A program made the position numbers and the translations under genes. From Eledone cirrhosa (Eukaryota), in NCBI GenBank assembly GCA_964016885.1, contig OZ024755.1, positions 15,314,001 to 15,378,000 on the forward strand: a stretch of DNA of 64,000 nt. Reading direction: 5' to 3'. The notes beneath the pieces were generated by a model. That model saw only the letters and a list, made by a program, of their open reading frames with translations. It made no database searches and had not been told where the DNA came from. Positions within the stretch are counted from its first letter, which is position 1; the number at the start of each line of letters is the position of its first letter. Shown in pieces: positions 4,861 through 53,516 of this stretch.

Positions 4861-6204
4861 TATATACATATATATATACATATATACATAATACATATAT
4901 ATATATACATACATATATATGCATATACATATACATATATATATATACATACATACATATATATACATACACATACATATATATATATACATACATATAT
5001 ATACATACACATACATATATATATATACATATATATATATACATACACATACATATATATATATACATATATATATACATACATATATATACATACATAT
5101 ATATATATACATATACATATATATATATACATATATATATACATATATATATATATACATATATATATATATACATATATATATACATATATATATATAT
5201 ACATATATATATATATACATATATATACATATATATATATATACATATATATATACATATATATATATATACATATATATATATATATATATATACATAT
5301 ATTATATATATATATATACATATATATATATATACATATATATATACATATATATATATATATACATATATATATATATACATATATATATATATACATA
5401 TATATATATATACATATATATATATATACATATATATATATATACATATATATATACATATATATATATATACATATATATATATATATATATATATATA
5501 TACATATATATATATATACATATATATATACATACATATATATATATATACATATATATATACATATATATATACATACATATAATATATATACATATAT
5601 ATATATATATATACATATATATATATATAGTTTTGCGAGGTTTTTTATATGAAATCGTGTGTCGAAACAGATATTGTTATATTTGGGGAGGGTCATATTT
5701 GCGTAATATTGCCAGAATTAATAACAGAACACACTCACTGTTTGGTTGGTTTTCGCTTCTCGCTGTCTTTTATATATATATATCTGCGATCTAACTTACT
5801 CGGTCCTCAATGTTGCCATTGACTGACCGGCGGTCAAAAATAATACAGATACAATATAGACAAACACATATATATATAGTTTACATAAATCTTTCGTTGC
5901 ACATCTGCAACATCGTCAGTGGTGTTATATTCATTGTTCCTCCTGTTGTGTTGTATGTCTACGCCATTTTTTTTTTTTTGTTGTTCAGTCTGTCTATATA
6001 TTTATTTATTTATTTGCTTGTTTGTTTATCTTATTTTATTTTGTCTTCTTTGCGCATGCGTTTGCGTGTGTGTATAGTGTTATGTGTGATGTGTGATGTG
6101 TGACTAGTGTGTATAGTGTTGTCTGCTGGGTGACTAGTGTGTGTTTATGTGCTTGTGTATGTATTTATTTATCTTATTTTATTTAATTTAATTTACTTAT
6201 TTAT

Positions 6205-6850
6205 TTATACTTCTCTTAGGTCAGTGTTGTTTGTTTGGGTGTTGTTGTTGTTCCACTCATTCTTTCTGTTTAGCTTTGGTCTTCTAATTTCTATTTCACT
6301 GGCCTCTCTGATTTGCCTATCTGCTGGGTCATTCCTATGTTTAGATATTATTCTAATTTCTATGTTGTCTATGTTACCGTCATGATGTTGTCTAGCATGT
6401 TCGTATAGTACTGACCCGTTTTTTCGTCCTTTTAGTTCCCCCCAGTGTTGGTCTATCCTTTCACCTATGCTACGAGCTGTCTCACCTATGTATGTTGTTG
6501 TCGTGTTTCTGCAAGTACCCTCTGTACATCTTATGCTATAGACTACGTTTCTAGTTTTACAGTTTATCCGGGGGTTCACCTTACATATGATACATTTCCT
6601 ATTGGTACAGTGGGTTTTCTTAAAAGGGTAGGTTTTGCTGATCAGGGATTTTATGGTGGTTCCTGGCTTTTCTACCACCTTTATTTTTAAGTGGGTCTTT
6701 CTCAGGGCCTTTCTACACTGGTTAGCTAATTTCCCTCCAGGGGTGGCGTCCACAAACATGACACTCTGATATCTCTGGTTGTCGTACCATGATGTGGCCT
6801 TCCCTATCTTATGTCTAGCCCTATCTAAGCTATTCCATGATTTGCTCCTG
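6205..6850 (-). pseudogene. Inverted duplicate of the PLE ORF C-terminus (GIY-YIG domain)
   Basis: The ORF track translation is identical to the last 184 aa of the 6916..8826 ORF. Confidence 0.93.
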
Positions 6851-8826
6851 ACATCCTAAAGCCAAGCAGACGCACTGCCAACAACTTCCAGGCGTCTAAC
6901 AATGGCATACCACCCTTGTATGGGCTCCGCAAAGACCACAAGACAGTCGACGACCCGACAATAGGACCACCAACAAGACCTGTATGCGGAGCTAATATAG
7001 CTAGCAACTACAGGATCTCCTACTTCCTCTCAATGGTTATACGCCCCATAATGAAGATGTCCCCAGATGTATGTGAAAGTACAGAGGACCTCCTCAGCAG
7101 AATCAGTGAGTGCAACAAAAACAGGAGCCTATCCAACTGCATAATAGGCAGCATGGATGTGGTGTCACTGTACCCATCCATTAACATTGATTTTGCTGTG
7201 AAAAGATGTGTGGAGATGATCATTGAGAGTGAGGTGGAGTTCTGCGACGTCGACACAGACGAACTGGGCCTCCTACTTAGACTTACCTACGACACTGACT
7301 ACCTAGACAGCCATGACCTTAGATGTTTCTGCCCTAGTAGACCTATAAGAGGTAGACCCCCCACCATAACCTCAATGGCTAAAAAGACTCCCATAGGAAG
7401 GTGGATTGGGTGGACCAAAGCTATACGGACCCCCCAAAACACTGATCAGGTAAGAAAAATGGTCGCACATGCAATAGGGGCTAGTATCAAAACTACCCTA
7501 AAGGGCCACATATTTAAGTTCAATGAGAAAATCTACACCCAAAATGAGGGAGCAGCCATCGGCGTCAGCATAGCTGGCGATGTTGCCAACCTTTTCATGG
7601 TATGGTGGGAAAGGAGACTTAAAGATCTCCTTAATGAAAGCTCCATAGACCTCATCATGTACTCTCGTTATGTAGACGATATCAATATAGTTATAAGAAC
7701 ACCCCCACTAGAGAGCACTAACAAGTTTGATTTAGAACGTAGCACGATGGAAAGCATCCAGCAGATAGCTAATTCCATACACCAGAGTATAACTGTAACT
7801 ATAGACTTCCCTTCCAAACACCCTAACAATAGACTACCTGTATTAGACACAGAACTCTGGATTAACACTATAGACGAGAGAGCCCAAATTCTCCACTCAC
7901 ACTATGCTAAACCCATGGCCTCCAAATACCTGATACTCAAAAACTCAGCAATGTCCAGTAGTGCTAAGTTTAATATTCTGATCGCAGATTTGGTACGAGT
8001 GATGAAGAATGTGTCCAGCATGTGCGACCCAAAAGAAATGGAAGGACACATCCAACACTTCATCAACCGCATGCAGTTCTCTGGCTACAACCAAAGAGAC
8101 AGAGTCAGAGTATACGAAGGAGCCATGGAAAAGTATAAGACCCTCATAGAACTGGACATGAAAGGAATTTGCCCACTATACAGGAGCAAATCATGGAATA
8201 GCTTAGATAGGGCTAGACATAAGATAGGGAAGGCCACATCATGGTACGACAACCAGAGATATCAGAGTGTCATGTTTGTGGACGCCACCCCTGGAGGGAA
8301 ATTAGCTAACCAGTGTAGAAAGGCCCTGAGAAAGACCCACTTAAAAATAAAGGTGGTAGAAAAGCCAGGAACCACCATAAAATCCCTGATCAGCAAAACC
8401 TACCCTTTTAAGAAAACCCACTGTACCAATAGGAAATGTATCATATGTAAGGTGAACCCCCGGATAAACTGTAAAACTAGAAACGTAGTCTATAGCATAA
8501 GATGTACAGAGGGTACTTGCAGAAACACGACAACAACATACATAGGTGAGACAGCTCGTAGCATAGGTGAAAGGATAGACCAACACTGGGGGGAACTAAA
8601 AGGACGAAAAAACGGGTCAGTACTATACGAACATGCTAGACAACATCATGACGGTAACATAGACAACATAGAAATTAGAATAATATCTAAACATAGGAAT
8701 GACCCAGCAGATAGGCAAATCAGAGAGGCCAGTGAAATAGAAATTAGAAGACCAAAGCTAAACAGAAAGAATGAGTGGAACAACAACAACACCCAAACAA
8801 ACAACACTGACCTAAGAGAAGTATAA
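6850..8826 (+). CDS. PLE reverse transcriptase plus GIY-YIG endonuclease (N-terminally truncated, uninterrupted frame)
   Basis: Motifs PPLYGLRKDHK, RPVC, SMDVVSLYPSI, QNEGAAIG, RYVDDI and LPVLD; Cys linker CTNRKCIIC; NVVYSIRC...YIGETARSIGERIDQH...LYEH...RQIREA...LNRKNE. The frame is open from the inversion junction, and the TTG at 6916 is not a true start. Confidence 0.95.
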   Translation, partial: DILKPSRRTANNFQASNNGIPPLYGLRKDHKTVDDPTIGPPTRPVCGANIASNYRISYFLSMVIRPIMKMSPDVCESTEDLLSRISECNKNRSLSNCIIGSMDVVSLYPSINIDFAVKRCVEMIIESEVEFCDVDTDELGLLLRLTYDTDYLDSHDLRCFCPSRPIRGRPPTITSMAKKTPIGRWIGWTKAIRTPQNTDQVRKMVAHAIGASIKTTLKGHIFKFNEKIYTQNEGAAIGVSIAGDVANLFMVWWERRLKDLLNESSIDLIMYSRYVDDINIVIRTPPLESTNKFDLERSTMESIQQIANSIHQSITVTIDFPSKHPNNRLPVLDTELWINTIDERAQILHSHYAKPMASKYLILKNSAMSSSAKFNILIADLVRVMKNVSSMCDPKEMEGHIQHFINRMQFSGYNQRDRVRVYEGAMEKYKTLIELDMKGICPLYRSKSWNSLDRARHKIGKATSWYDNQRYQSVMFVDATPGGKLANQCRKALRKTHLKIKVVEKPGTTIKSLISKTYPFKKTHCTNRKCIICKVNPRINCKTRNVVYSIRCTEGTCRNTTTTYIGETARSIGERIDQHWGELKGRKNGSVLYEHARQHHDGNIDNIEIRIISKHRNDPADRQIREASEIEIRRPKLNRKNEWNNNNTQTNNTDLREV

Positions 8827-52149: not shown

Positions 52150-53451
52150 ATTTCGTTTCTGAATTTGTTTAGCAAGATTCTTTATCTGAAATCGTGTGTT
52201 GAAACCGATATTGTTATACTTTGGGAGGGTCATGTTGCCAATAAGAAACACACGCACCAGTTTCGTTCACTTCAATTTATTATATATTTATAAATTTACA
52301 AATTTATAAATTTATAAATTTCTGGTTGGATGGTTGGTTCCACAACCAGATAGTTGTTTATATATAGTCATAGTTCTTTCGTCACACACTCTGTGACCTC
52401 TTCAGTGACTGGGGATTCCTTTCTTTGTTTCTGTGCCTCTCCTTTGTTCTGTCCTACGCTATTTTGTTTCTGTGTGTGTGTTGTGTGCTCAGTCTGCGCA
52501 TGCGCCACATCCGGGTGTCTGTGTGTGTTTATGTTCATTTATTTATTTGTTTATTTACATGTTACTGGTTGGTTGTTTGTTCTATGTGTGTGTGTGTTTT
52601 CATTTTGTCCTTAATTGTAAGTTGTGATGTTGCTGTTCCACTTATATTTTCTATTTAATTTTGTTTGTAATTCTTTTATGTTTATTGCCTCTGTAATTTG
52701 TCTAAACATTGCGTCTTTTCTGTGTAGATTCTATTTTTATTTCTATGTTCTCTAATTTACCCTTGTGTTCTATCTTAGCATGTTGGTAGAGTACAGATGA
52801 TTCTTTATTATCTTGAAGGTCTCGCCAGTGTTCATTTATCCGTTCCCCTACACTAAGATCTGTATCACCTATGTACACTATATTTTTGTCTCTACATTGT
52901 CCTTCAGTACATCTTATGCTATACACTACATTTCTAGTTTTACAGTTAATATGGGGGCTTATTTTACAGGTTATACATTTATCTATACATGAGGGTCTTT
53001 GAAAAGGGTATGTCTTGCTAATAAGTGTTTTTACGGAGGTACCTGGTTTTCTACTATCTTAATATTGAGTTTATGTTTATTTAGGGCCCTTCTAAATTTG
53101 TAAGCTAATTCACCTCTAGGTGTTGTATTGATGAACATTACACTCTGGTATTTATTGCTATCATACCATGAGTTTATTCTATTAGCCTTGTTCCTAGTTC
53201 TTTCTATTCTATTCCAAAATTTGCTCCTATACAAGGGGCAGGTCCCATTTATGTCATTATTTACCATTTTTTACCATTTGGTTCTGGCTCCTCTATACAC
53301 TCTGATTTTATCTCTCTGATTGTAGCCAGAGAACTGCATACGGTGGAGGAAGTGTTGTATGTGTCTCTCTAGTTCTTTGGGGTTGCACATGCGGGACACA
53401 TTTCTCATCACCCGTACCAAATCCGCAATCAGTATGCTGATTTTGGTATGG
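52150..53451 (-). mobile_element. Older degenerate copy of a sister PLE family (related to 5628-9358)
   Basis: Frameshifted homology: ILIADLVRVMRNVSRMCNP, CPLYRSKFWN, KYQSVMF, YSIRCTEGQC..YIGDT..GERINEHW and SVLYQH. Conserved terminus. Confidence 0.92.
52366..52410 (-). ncRNA. Minimal type I hammerhead ribozyme in the PLE terminal repeat
   Basis: AGTCA-CTGAAGA-G-GTCACA-gagtg-TGTGAC-GAAA-gaac-TA-TGACT. Confidence 0.85.
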
Positions 53452-53463
53452 TTTAATATAGAT

Positions 53464-53516
53464 GAGATTCTACAAGACTAGAACTGTTTCATTCTTTAGA
53501 AATCATCAGGAATCTC
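53464..53516 (-). ncRNA. Type I hammerhead ribozyme (family of 23261-23470)
   Basis: GAGATTC-CTGATGA-T-TTC-taaa-GAA-T-GAA-ACAG-ttctagtc-TTGT-A-GAATCTC. 7-bp stem I and GUA triplet. Confidence 0.82.

What the first reader, a model, noticed from the sequence alone, without database searches (positions are those of the whole stretch)
5883..53516. About eight hammerhead ribozyme motifs from several families, all embedded in TA microsatellite
Seen: CUGANGA-stemII-GAAA-stemIII-UH folds at 9107 (+, mirror at 5883), 23402, 29867, 30253, 34747, 45088, 50367, 52366 (-) and 53464 (-). Homologous pairs covary. Stem II is GTTGCA/TGCAAC (9119) versus GTCACA/TGTGAC (52381), and stem I is TGGCTTC/GAAGCCA (23402) versus GAGATTC/GAATCTC (53464). 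Known: minimal type I hammerheads mark the terminal repeats of Penelope-like elements and retrozymes. Inference: this genome has a dense, diverse population of ribozyme-bearing, TA-targeting retroelements that ORF-based annotation misses. Some copies have mutated cores (CGCATGA, CCGAAGA) and are probably inactive.
Basis: partly seen in the sequence, partly recalled or inferred. Interest (0 to 1): 0.85.

Follow-up and report, generated by a model that had tools for sequence, protein, structure and literature searches.

The report
Hammerhead ribozymes in octopus Penelope retrotransposons
These are real hammerhead-ribozyme sequences carried by several families of Penelope-like jumping genes that land in TA repeats, with more than 115,000 copies in this (likely octopus) genome, one family having an unusually long arm, and the copy ends suggest that in some families the RNA likely begins right at the ribozyme and is copied uncut, although self-cleavage itself is only predicted.

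Summary
Observation confirmed: 13 motif copies from 9 insertions and 7 families (8 core+helix II hits versus 0.56 in shuffles, 0 of 200). Six families sit in the pseudo-LTR of Penelope-like elements (RT + GIY-YIG; Neptune-type, Hydra-type and one more), one with a 661-aa ORF in the window; the seventh forms retrozyme-like tandem arrays. Element 3' ends run into (TA)n (161 of 182 versus 37-39% of controls) at two sites per family. This class is known, and a Hydra element is already listed for Octopus. New here: at least 115,000 motifs genome-wide; the 34747 site is a type I hammerhead with a 99-126 nt helix II region (10,708 copies, covarying) that standard descriptors miss; the U4C core is the majority form of a young family (2,695 of 3,680), not decay; and in two Hydra families copies end and fold back right at helix I (703 and 454 events versus 3 and 10 upstream), in one with an untemplated G, suggesting capped, uncut RNA starting at the ribozyme is the template. 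No RNA or cleavage data.

The parts
5633..9347 (.). Family A Penelope-like insertion (Neptune-type): 5'-truncated copy on + with an inverted 1,168-bp duplicate of its 3' end on -, plus a 50-nt tail at the left end; both ends abut TA arrays
   Evidence: arms 5683-6850 / 8181-9347 99.9% identical; sequence
6841..8826 (+). 661-aa open frame: RT + CX4CxxC linker + GIY-YIG endonuclease (5'-truncated; full frames of 1,217 aa elsewhere)
   Evidence: (RVT_1 E=9e-5, below Pfam cut-off)
9109..9146 (+). Family A hammerhead; C3 9111, predicted cut after 9144; 6-bp helix II, self-complementary helix III, 2-bp proximal helix I
   Evidence: 5,283 identical 36-nt copies in the genome
5884..5921 (-). Mirror copy of the family A hammerhead (C3 5919)
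23402..23454 (+). Family C hammerhead with decayed core, in a short palindromic insertion 23266-23466
29867..29904 (+). Family D hammerhead (Hydra-type element), 2-bp helix II closed by U.U; right arm of palindrome 29780-29937, tail to about 30002
   Evidence: 7,199 genome copies
29813..29850 (-). Mirror copy of the family D hammerhead (C3 29846); fold-back centre about 12 nt 5' of the core
30129..30163 (-). Family E hammerhead with U4C core, intact helices; left arm of palindrome 30019-30398
30253..30287 (+). Family E hammerhead, U4C core, one helix II mismatch; right arm
34747..34901 (+). Family X hammerhead with giant helix II region (116 nt between the two core boxes), 10-bp helix I, palindromic helix III, predicted cut after 34891; in palindrome 34511-34960 with tail to about 35098
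   Evidence: 10,708 complete genome copies
34570..34714 (-). Mirror copy of family X hammerhead (10-nt shorter loop)
45088..45122 (+). Family E hammerhead, canonical core, helix I broken; solo 3' fragment 45046-45236
50367..50409 (+). Family F hammerhead, 6-bp helix I, 6-nt palindromic helix III; fragment 50182-50525 of a retrozyme-like repeat (456-502 bp tandem units elsewhere)
   Evidence: (L117)
52152..53451 (-). Family B Penelope-like 3' fragment (Neptune-type) with broken RT/GIY-YIG frame at 52702-53451, about 70% DNA identity to family A
52366..52410 (-). Family B hammerhead; C3 52405, predicted cut after 52371
53464..53516 (-). Family C hammerhead, intact; 64-bp fragment whose 5' end lies at the start of helix I

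Best explanation
The motifs are type I hammerhead sequences in the pseudo-LTRs of at least six Penelope-like retrotransposon families and one retrozyme-like repeat whose copies end in (TA)n arrays; they are predicted to cleave only slowly, as dimers or with help from the element's protein, and in the Hydra-type families the RNA likely starts at helix I and is likely reverse-transcribed uncut. Shown: the folds, their linkage to RT+GIY-YIG frames, two fixed 3' end sites per family abutting TA, head-to-head duplications, and a sharp pile-up of 5' ends at helix I in families X and D. From the literature (PMC11167929): the protein nicks AT-rich DNA and starts reverse transcription at two internal sites, which gives the tail. 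Inferred: when RT starts at the site in the 5' pseudo-LTR it copies only 100-350 nt, reaches the capped RNA end, adds a C opposite the cap, folds back and leaves a short ribozyme-bearing palindrome; this explains why most copies have no ORF. Palindromic helix III restricts cleavage to paired ribozymes (tandem transcripts or two RNAs), so most single transcripts would stay whole.
For: Shuffle control. Genome counts versus reversed-pattern controls: 89,964 vs 156, 11,430 vs 0, 3,680 vs 0, 10,708 vs 0. Across 30 sequence clusters gathered on core + helix II only, own tails give helix I mean 3.60 bp and 17 of 30 with helix I >=3 plus palindromic helix III; swapped tails give 1.63 and 2.2 (0 of 2000). 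ORF linkage: A (7, 15), B and E (29), D and X (37, 38), C (38, L084). TA within 300 nt 3' of the cut site in 161 of 182 copies of families B-F and X versus 37% of random positions and 11 of 28 SINE copies; two end sites per family. Fold-backs centred within 15 nt 5' of the core: X 703, D 454, A 6 versus 3 and 10 in equal windows about 40-55 nt upstream. X copies diverge at -8 in 2,875 cases but at -9 in 230. In D the first non-element base is G in 45 of 100 listed (p=0.01 against 1/3) and in 14 of 25 true 5' ends among 30 loci; an untemplated 5' G is read as cap copying for L1 (PMC9341517). Fold-backs exactly at the cut site are rare: 1 of 50 listed in D, 0 of 50 in C, 0 of 28 in X (3 at one base off) (hand counts).
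Against: No RNA or cleavage data. The G excess is clear only in D: in X it is 22 of 100 versus 13 of 100 at the control position, and 6 of 30 X loci are a subfamily with a different upstream segment, not 5' ends. Upstream control patterns cover fewer subfamilies than the peak patterns (29 of 50 listed events belong to the subfamily tested). Family A has only 2 bp of proximal helix I, and isolated minimum-energy folds give the hammerhead shape cleanly only for X, E, B and F. No Rfam hammerhead model matches. Clade names rest on motifs, not a tree. Family F has no ORF linked in the loci tested.
Confidence: 0.82

Rival explanations
1. The 5'-end pile-up at helix I is an RT pause or template-switch hotspot (structure or AT-rich microhomology), or the end of a spliced intron, not a transcription start; the ribozymes are otherwise ordinary pseudo-LTR hammerheads.
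For: Many X fold-backs centre on a 4-nt AT palindrome in helix I, and D fold-backs near the cut site centre on the helix III palindrome in 19 of 50 listed, so self-complementary DNA does drive fold-back. An intron ends at helix I in Drosophila Penelope (PMC4209133), and families B and C have an AG just 5' of the core.
Against: RT meets the 3' strand of helix I first, so a structural stall should lie 3' of the core, where events are fewer (X 28 vs 703). The one-base step at -8/-9 and the extra G in D, also between a TA array and the element (L253), fit a capped end. Family C has a TATA box about 35 nt before the core.
Confidence: 0.3
2. The ribozymes cut multimeric transcripts to unit length, the units circularise, and RT copies the circles (rolling circle), as proposed for retrozymes; genomic copies carry an intact site because it was re-ligated.
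For: Perfect tandem arrays with one hammerhead per unit: 310-bp units (L116, L117) and 456-502 bp family F units (L117), and 4.1-kb family A tandems. Circular retrozyme RNAs are documented in coral, mussel and axolotl (PMC7229834).
Against: A circle has no 5' end, so it does not explain the peak at helix I or the extra G in D and X. In vitro a PLE used unprocessed RNA and ribozyme mutants did not change insertion (PMC11167929). Likely true for F-type repeats, not for the autonomous Hydra families.
Confidence: 0.3
3. The folds are conserved as protein-binding or promoter-proximal structures and are catalytically silent in vivo.
For: U4C majority in family E, U.U or C.A at the base of helix II, 2-bp helix I in A; no genomic trace of cut ends; no reads at the cut site in Anolis (PMC11167929).
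Against: Core letters, a non-G base at the cut site and a palindromic helix III are kept across at least 17 unrelated clusters whose stems differ (the cut-site base was part of my descriptor); U.U and U4C variants are active elsewhere (PMC3088659).
Confidence: 0.12
4. Chance matches in AT-rich, palindrome-rich DNA.
For: The window is 29% GC and about 30% microsatellite; two weak candidates (19055, 38779) probably are chance or decay.
Confidence: 0.01

Closest known systems
Minimal type I hammerheads of Penelope-like elements (Cervera and de la Pena 2014, PMC4209133)
   Same: Position in the pseudo-LTR, short palindromic helix III, extra base after A9, many families per genome, mostly truncated solo copies, close pairs on opposite strands.
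   Different: At least 115,000 copies here versus about 2,000-9,000 reported for Schistosoma, coelacanth and Xenopus; many families close helix II with U.U instead of G-C; family X has a 99-126 nt helix II region versus 7-8 bp; U4C cores dominate one family.
Hydra-clade PLEs (Craig et al. 2021, PMC8557442; Hydra-1_Obim in its file S1)
   Same: RWK-like, DKT, CxCX5C, CxxC and CxH motifs; (TA)n targets; tail; inverted copies; hammerheads; presence in Octopus.
   Different: Described as short (<3 kb), few families, canonical hammerheads; family X is about 6 kb with a 3.2-kb repeat-rich 3' UTR and a giant ribozyme; 5' ends at helix I are not described in the passages read.
Neptune-clade PLEs
   Same: Families A and B: CX4CxxC linker, cysteine pair inside the GIY-YIG core, TA targets.
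   Different: Family A is in a very recent burst (150 of 150 scored hits identical). No tree was built.
Non-LTR retrozymes (PMC7229834; bioRxiv 10.64898/2026.07.22.740005)
   Same: ORF-less 310-bp and about 490-bp tandem units with one type I hammerhead each.
   Different: Arrays here show the PLE head-to-head arrangement and TA ends; circular RNA not shown. Axolotl has up to 120,000 copies, a similar number in a much larger genome (size recalled).
Poseidon PLE of Anolis, PAc (PMC11167929)
   Same: Two 3' end sites per family; AT-rich targets; uncut RNA as template.
   Different: PAc evidence is biochemical; here it is genomic, and adds a mapped RNA 5' end candidate.

Membership tests
Type I hammerhead ribozyme | Conserved core boxes flanking helix II, A15.1-U16.1 pair and non-G cut base | tested here: met
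   12 of 13 window copies keep the core (two with U4C); 23409 does not
Type I hammerhead ribozyme | Helices I-III supported by covariation | tested here: met
   tail-swap control 0 of 2000; family X 97.3% of cells paired, 6 pairs changed on both sides, slid controls 21-62% (structure derived from the same alignment, so it leans)
Type I hammerhead ribozyme | Match to an Rfam hammerhead model | tested here: not met
   no hammerhead family at E<=10 at three sites; lowers 'canonical Rfam member', not the fold
Type I hammerhead ribozyme | Site-specific self-cleavage | not testable with these tools
   no bench or RNA-end data
Penelope-like element (EN+) | Single ORF with RT and C-terminal GIY-YIG | tested here: met
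   (families A, B, D, E, X; for C only the N-terminal half was seen)
Penelope-like element (EN+) | Pseudo-LTR tandems, inverted 5'-truncated copy, tail at one end | tested here: met
Penelope-like element (EN+) | RT groups with PLE/telomerase RTs in a tree | not tested
   no named reference set was on hand
Hydra clade (families C, D, X) | RWK-like, DKT, CxCX5C linker, CxxC and CxH, no CCHH | tested here: met
   X has all five; C has RWR and DKT; D has CxCX5C, CxxC, CxH; definitions
Neptune clade (families A, B) | CX2-5CxxC linker plus cysteine pair in the endonuclease core | tested here: met
   A; B fragment
Nematis or Penelope/Poseidon clade (family E) | Reduced or absent linker | tested here: inconclusive
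   GxKF and DKG present, no CX2-5CxxC; clade not resolved
Non-LTR retrozyme (family F) | ORF-less tandem units of 150-500 bp, one type I hammerhead each | tested here: met
   (L117); no PLE protein match linked to F
Non-LTR retrozyme (family F) | Expressed as circular RNA | not testable with these tools
   no RNA holder listed

The most novel reading that the evidence does not exclude
In Hydra-clade elements the hammerhead is the capped first 45-145 nt of the transcript and works as a self-decapping switch: whole capped RNA is translated and copied, while pairing of two ribozymes through helix III cuts off the cap and silences the element as its RNA accumulates. The genome records this in more than a thousand ribozyme palindromes, and a 150-nt giant-arm hammerhead class has been missed by all short-spacer descriptors.
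Probability: 0.25. Interest if true: 0.8.

Novelty: new variant of a known kind. Interest (0 to 1): 0.58.

Why it matters
What the hammerhead does in Penelope-like elements is stated to be unclear (PMC8557442, PMC11167929). This genome has young families of several clades and over 115,000 copies, so RNA ends can be read from DNA: the Hydra-type copies point to a transcript starting on helix I and copied uncut, a precise prediction for CAGE and cyclic-phosphate sequencing. The giant-arm family shows that descriptor searches (7-17 nt spacer in PMC8557442) undercount ribozymes, and the U4C family shows that a weakened core can spread. Thousands of perfect head-to-head repeats are also a likely source of double-stranded RNA in an animal group known (recalled) for heavy RNA editing.

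Tried and rejected
Whole-window Rfam scan was swamped by microsatellite-miRNA noise. A DNA query in the own genome returned nothing because common words are skipped, and my first pattern had a wrong gap length and caught 4 variants only. I first read 34747 as a half core without GAAA, possibly a Naiad; long loci showed a Hydra-type ORF and a distant second box. Idea that the elements add the TA arrays themselves: rejected, the C- or G-rich strand of the flanking arrays is mixed (C 8/8, D 10/8, X 21/22; family A uninformative because of an internal TA run, E 5/15 unexplained). Search for genomic fossils of cut RNA: none found. The 5'-end map is inflated by mirror arms and TA matches and was replaced. 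Sequencing runs: no RNA holder listed; four runs laid as contigs give no ends or expression, no evidence either way. Earlier-findings look-ups were empty. The upstream segment of L218 and L222-L226 was not compared with the window's SINE, and motif density in the 10-kb neighbours was not counted.
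Full report
Observation. A descriptor scan found 8 strict cores with a helix II of 3 bp or more against a mean of 0.56 in 200 local dinucleotide shuffles (0 of 200), and 3 complete three-helix motifs against 0.07. With mirror arms the window holds 13 motif copies from 9 insertions and 7 families, which I call A (9111, 5919), B (52405), C (23409, 53509), D (29871, 29846), E (30160, 30256, 45091), F (50373) and X (34757, 34704). 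They lie 18-255 nt from the nearest (TA)5, not inside it.

Host and carriers. The window lies in a 3.0-Gb assembly. The best named relative of the family A protein is an Octopus vulgaris protein at 68% identity, so an octopod host is inferred; the 190-bp dispersed repeat also looks like an octopus SINE (recalled). The 9111 motif follows a 661-aa RT + GIY-YIG frame (6841-8826), and 5683-6850 is a 99.9% inverted copy of 8181-9347 with a 50-nt extension. This is the Penelope-like layout of PMC8557442: pseudo-LTR, inverted 5'-truncated copy, tail. The endonuclease part has 35,605 candidates in the genome, of which 150 were scored and all 150 are identical, many in 1,217-aa frames and 4.1-kb tandems. 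B follows a related broken frame. E lies downstream of 825-900 aa frames. D and X lie downstream, and C upstream, of frames with the Hydra-clade motifs. F and a 310-bp relative form ORF-less tandem arrays in head-to-head arrangement. Clade names rest on motifs only.

Scale. Exact patterns against reversed controls: U.U class (includes C, D, F) 89,964 vs 156; A+B 11,430 vs 0; E 3,680 vs 0; X 10,708 vs 0. Sum less control, by hand: about 115,600, or 39 per Mb, a lower bound; the window has 11 matches to the same patterns, about 4.5 times the mean. Published figures: about 2,000-9,000 minimal motifs in Schistosoma, coelacanth and Xenopus (PMC4209133), about 5,000 in mussel and up to 120,000 in axolotl (PMC7229834).

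Structure is selected. I gathered every core with a helix II of 2 bp or more from the loci held at that point (164 distinct motifs, 30 clusters, first member taken, none dropped). Own tails gave mean helix I 3.60 bp and 17 of 30 with helix I of 3 bp or more plus a palindromic helix III; swapped tails, scored the same way, gave 1.63 and 2.2 (0 of 2000). The loci were fetched with hammerhead patterns, but helix I was in none of them. In the 10-nt helix II class the loop varies freely while stem positions change together.

Family X, a giant-arm hammerhead. At 34757 the second core box lies 116 nt downstream. The minimum-energy fold gives a 9-10 bp helix I, an unpaired core, a long interrupted helix II and a palindromic helix III (z = -5.4, 0 of 200 shuffles). 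Among relatives the spacer is 99-126 nt, N7 and the cut base vary as in hammerheads, and in 20 aligned copies (20 of 29 listed, near-duplicates left out) 97.3% of cells pair, 6 pairs change on both sides, 0 of 500 shuffles reach the covariation score and slid partners pair 21-62%. The structure came from the same alignment (which mis-paired the core), so the counts lean towards it, and relatedness inflates the shuffle test. The descriptor in PMC8557442 allowed 7-17 nt, with half-cores at 35-50 nt; long helix II in PMC13725137 means 6-8 bp.

U4C is not decay. It is 2,695 of 3,680 family E copies, occurs beside long open frames and in unrelated families (L142, L150, L157, L182). PMC3088659 reports a U4C viroid variant with lower activity in vitro that still supports infection, and natural U.U closing pairs. 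CpG decay from the C form to the U form is possible and untested.

Insertion. Copies end at two fixed distances from the predicted cut (X 70 and 207, D 36 and 102, E 120 and 164, C about 22 and 89 nt) and run into TA in 161 of 182 copies of families B-F and X, against 37% of random positions and 11 of 28 SINE copies (A left out because of an internal TA run). Two end sites match the two internal RT start sites shown for the Anolis element (PMC11167929). In the first 100 X matches I counted by hand 29 head-to-head pairs and 1 convergent pair within 12 kb.

Where the copies begin. Palindromes centred within 15 nt 5' of the core number 703 for X and 454 for D but 6 for A (5,283 copies). Equal windows about 40-55 nt upstream give 3 and 10 (narrower subfamily cover), and windows around the cut site give 28 and 145, mostly at the helix III palindrome. 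X copies diverge from the element at -8 in 2,875 cases and at -9 in 230, though 6 of 30 inspected are a subfamily with another upstream segment. In D the first foreign base is G in 45 of 100 listed, where the element has C (hand count), and in 14 of 25 true 5' ends; in X the excess is weak (22 vs 13 of 100). An untemplated 5' G is taken as cap copying in L1 (PMC9341517). Family C has a TATA box about 35 nt before the core and 8 of 24 copies end within 15 nt of it. Fold-backs exactly at the cut site are nearly absent. The simplest reading is that Hydra-type transcripts start on helix I and are copied uncut, RT starting at the nearby 5' site and folding back at the cap. RT pausing or an intron end remain rivals.

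What is known. Read: PMC4209133 parts 1-2 of 4 and a supplement search (file 1 not searched); PMC8557442 passages, section 11 and file S1 (lists Hydra-1_Obim, (TA)n target; its hammerhead file S2 is not held and may bear on novelty); PMC11167929 parts 1-2 of 4; passages of PMC7229834, PMC3088659, PMC13282606 (Penelope elements active in O. vulgaris; 'ribozyme' and 'hammerhead' 0 times), PMC13725137, PMC9341517, PMC6155905, PMC8782182; bioRxiv 10.64898/2026.07.22.740005 part 1 of 5 and passages (supplements closed). Searches for octopus or cephalopod hammerheads, long helix II, cap or start-site mapping in PLEs listed nothing that describes the scale, the giant arm or the 5'-end pattern; the library lacks most subscription papers, including the 2017 work on dimeric PLE hammerheads (recalled).

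Verdict. Real, and in kind already known; a new variant because of the giant-arm ribozyme, the U4C family, the scale and the genomic record of RNA ends. Cleavage and expression are unshown. Interest 0.58.

Noticed in passing
window 2657-2751 and 4761-4855: Two 95-bp mini-insertions of the family A 3' end only (45-nt inverted piece plus 51-nt tail, no ribozyme), 99% alike, inside one 5-kb TA array.
   Followed up: partly
G000: Family A is in a very recent burst: 150 of 150 scored endonuclease hits on two chromosomes identical, many intact 1,217-aa frames; near-identical sequence is held by runs of three coded organisms.
   Followed up: partly
L172:4130-7327: Family X has a 3.2-kb 3' UTR of which 1,684 nt are dinucleotide repeats; it would spread microsatellite, and so new targets, with each long copy.
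   Followed up: partly
L218, L222-L226, just 5' of position 1500: An X subfamily has a constant different segment joined directly to helix I that resembles the 3' end of the octopus-type SINE (recalled, not compared); a SINE promoter could drive these ribozymes.
   Followed up: no
L116, L117, L126, L127: 310-bp retrozyme-like tandem arrays (family not in the window) in head-to-head arrangement, up to 14 units.
   Followed up: partly
loci L012-L203: About ten further hammerhead families in flanking DNA, several with U4C cores; the genome total is an undercount.
   Followed up: partly
window 56309-59446 (-) and 11660-12856 (+): LINE with an intact 1,045-aa AP-endonuclease + RT frame and a 98% identical truncated copy; both also abut TA arrays, as do RT fragments at 46151-47950 and 43587-44464.
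   Followed up: no
window 35895-36461 (-) and 24812-25150 (-): Transposase-like HTH fragment with terminal inverted repeats 35835-35928/36596-36690; and an old Hydra-type RT fragment (31% identity).
   Followed up: no
window 38779 (+), 19055 (-): Two weak core + helix II matches without helix I; chance or decayed copies.
   Followed up: partly
window 32050-32193, 35722-35799, 24639-24691: Further short palindromes next to TA runs without a recognisable core; possibly 3'-end fold-backs of other families.
   Followed up: no
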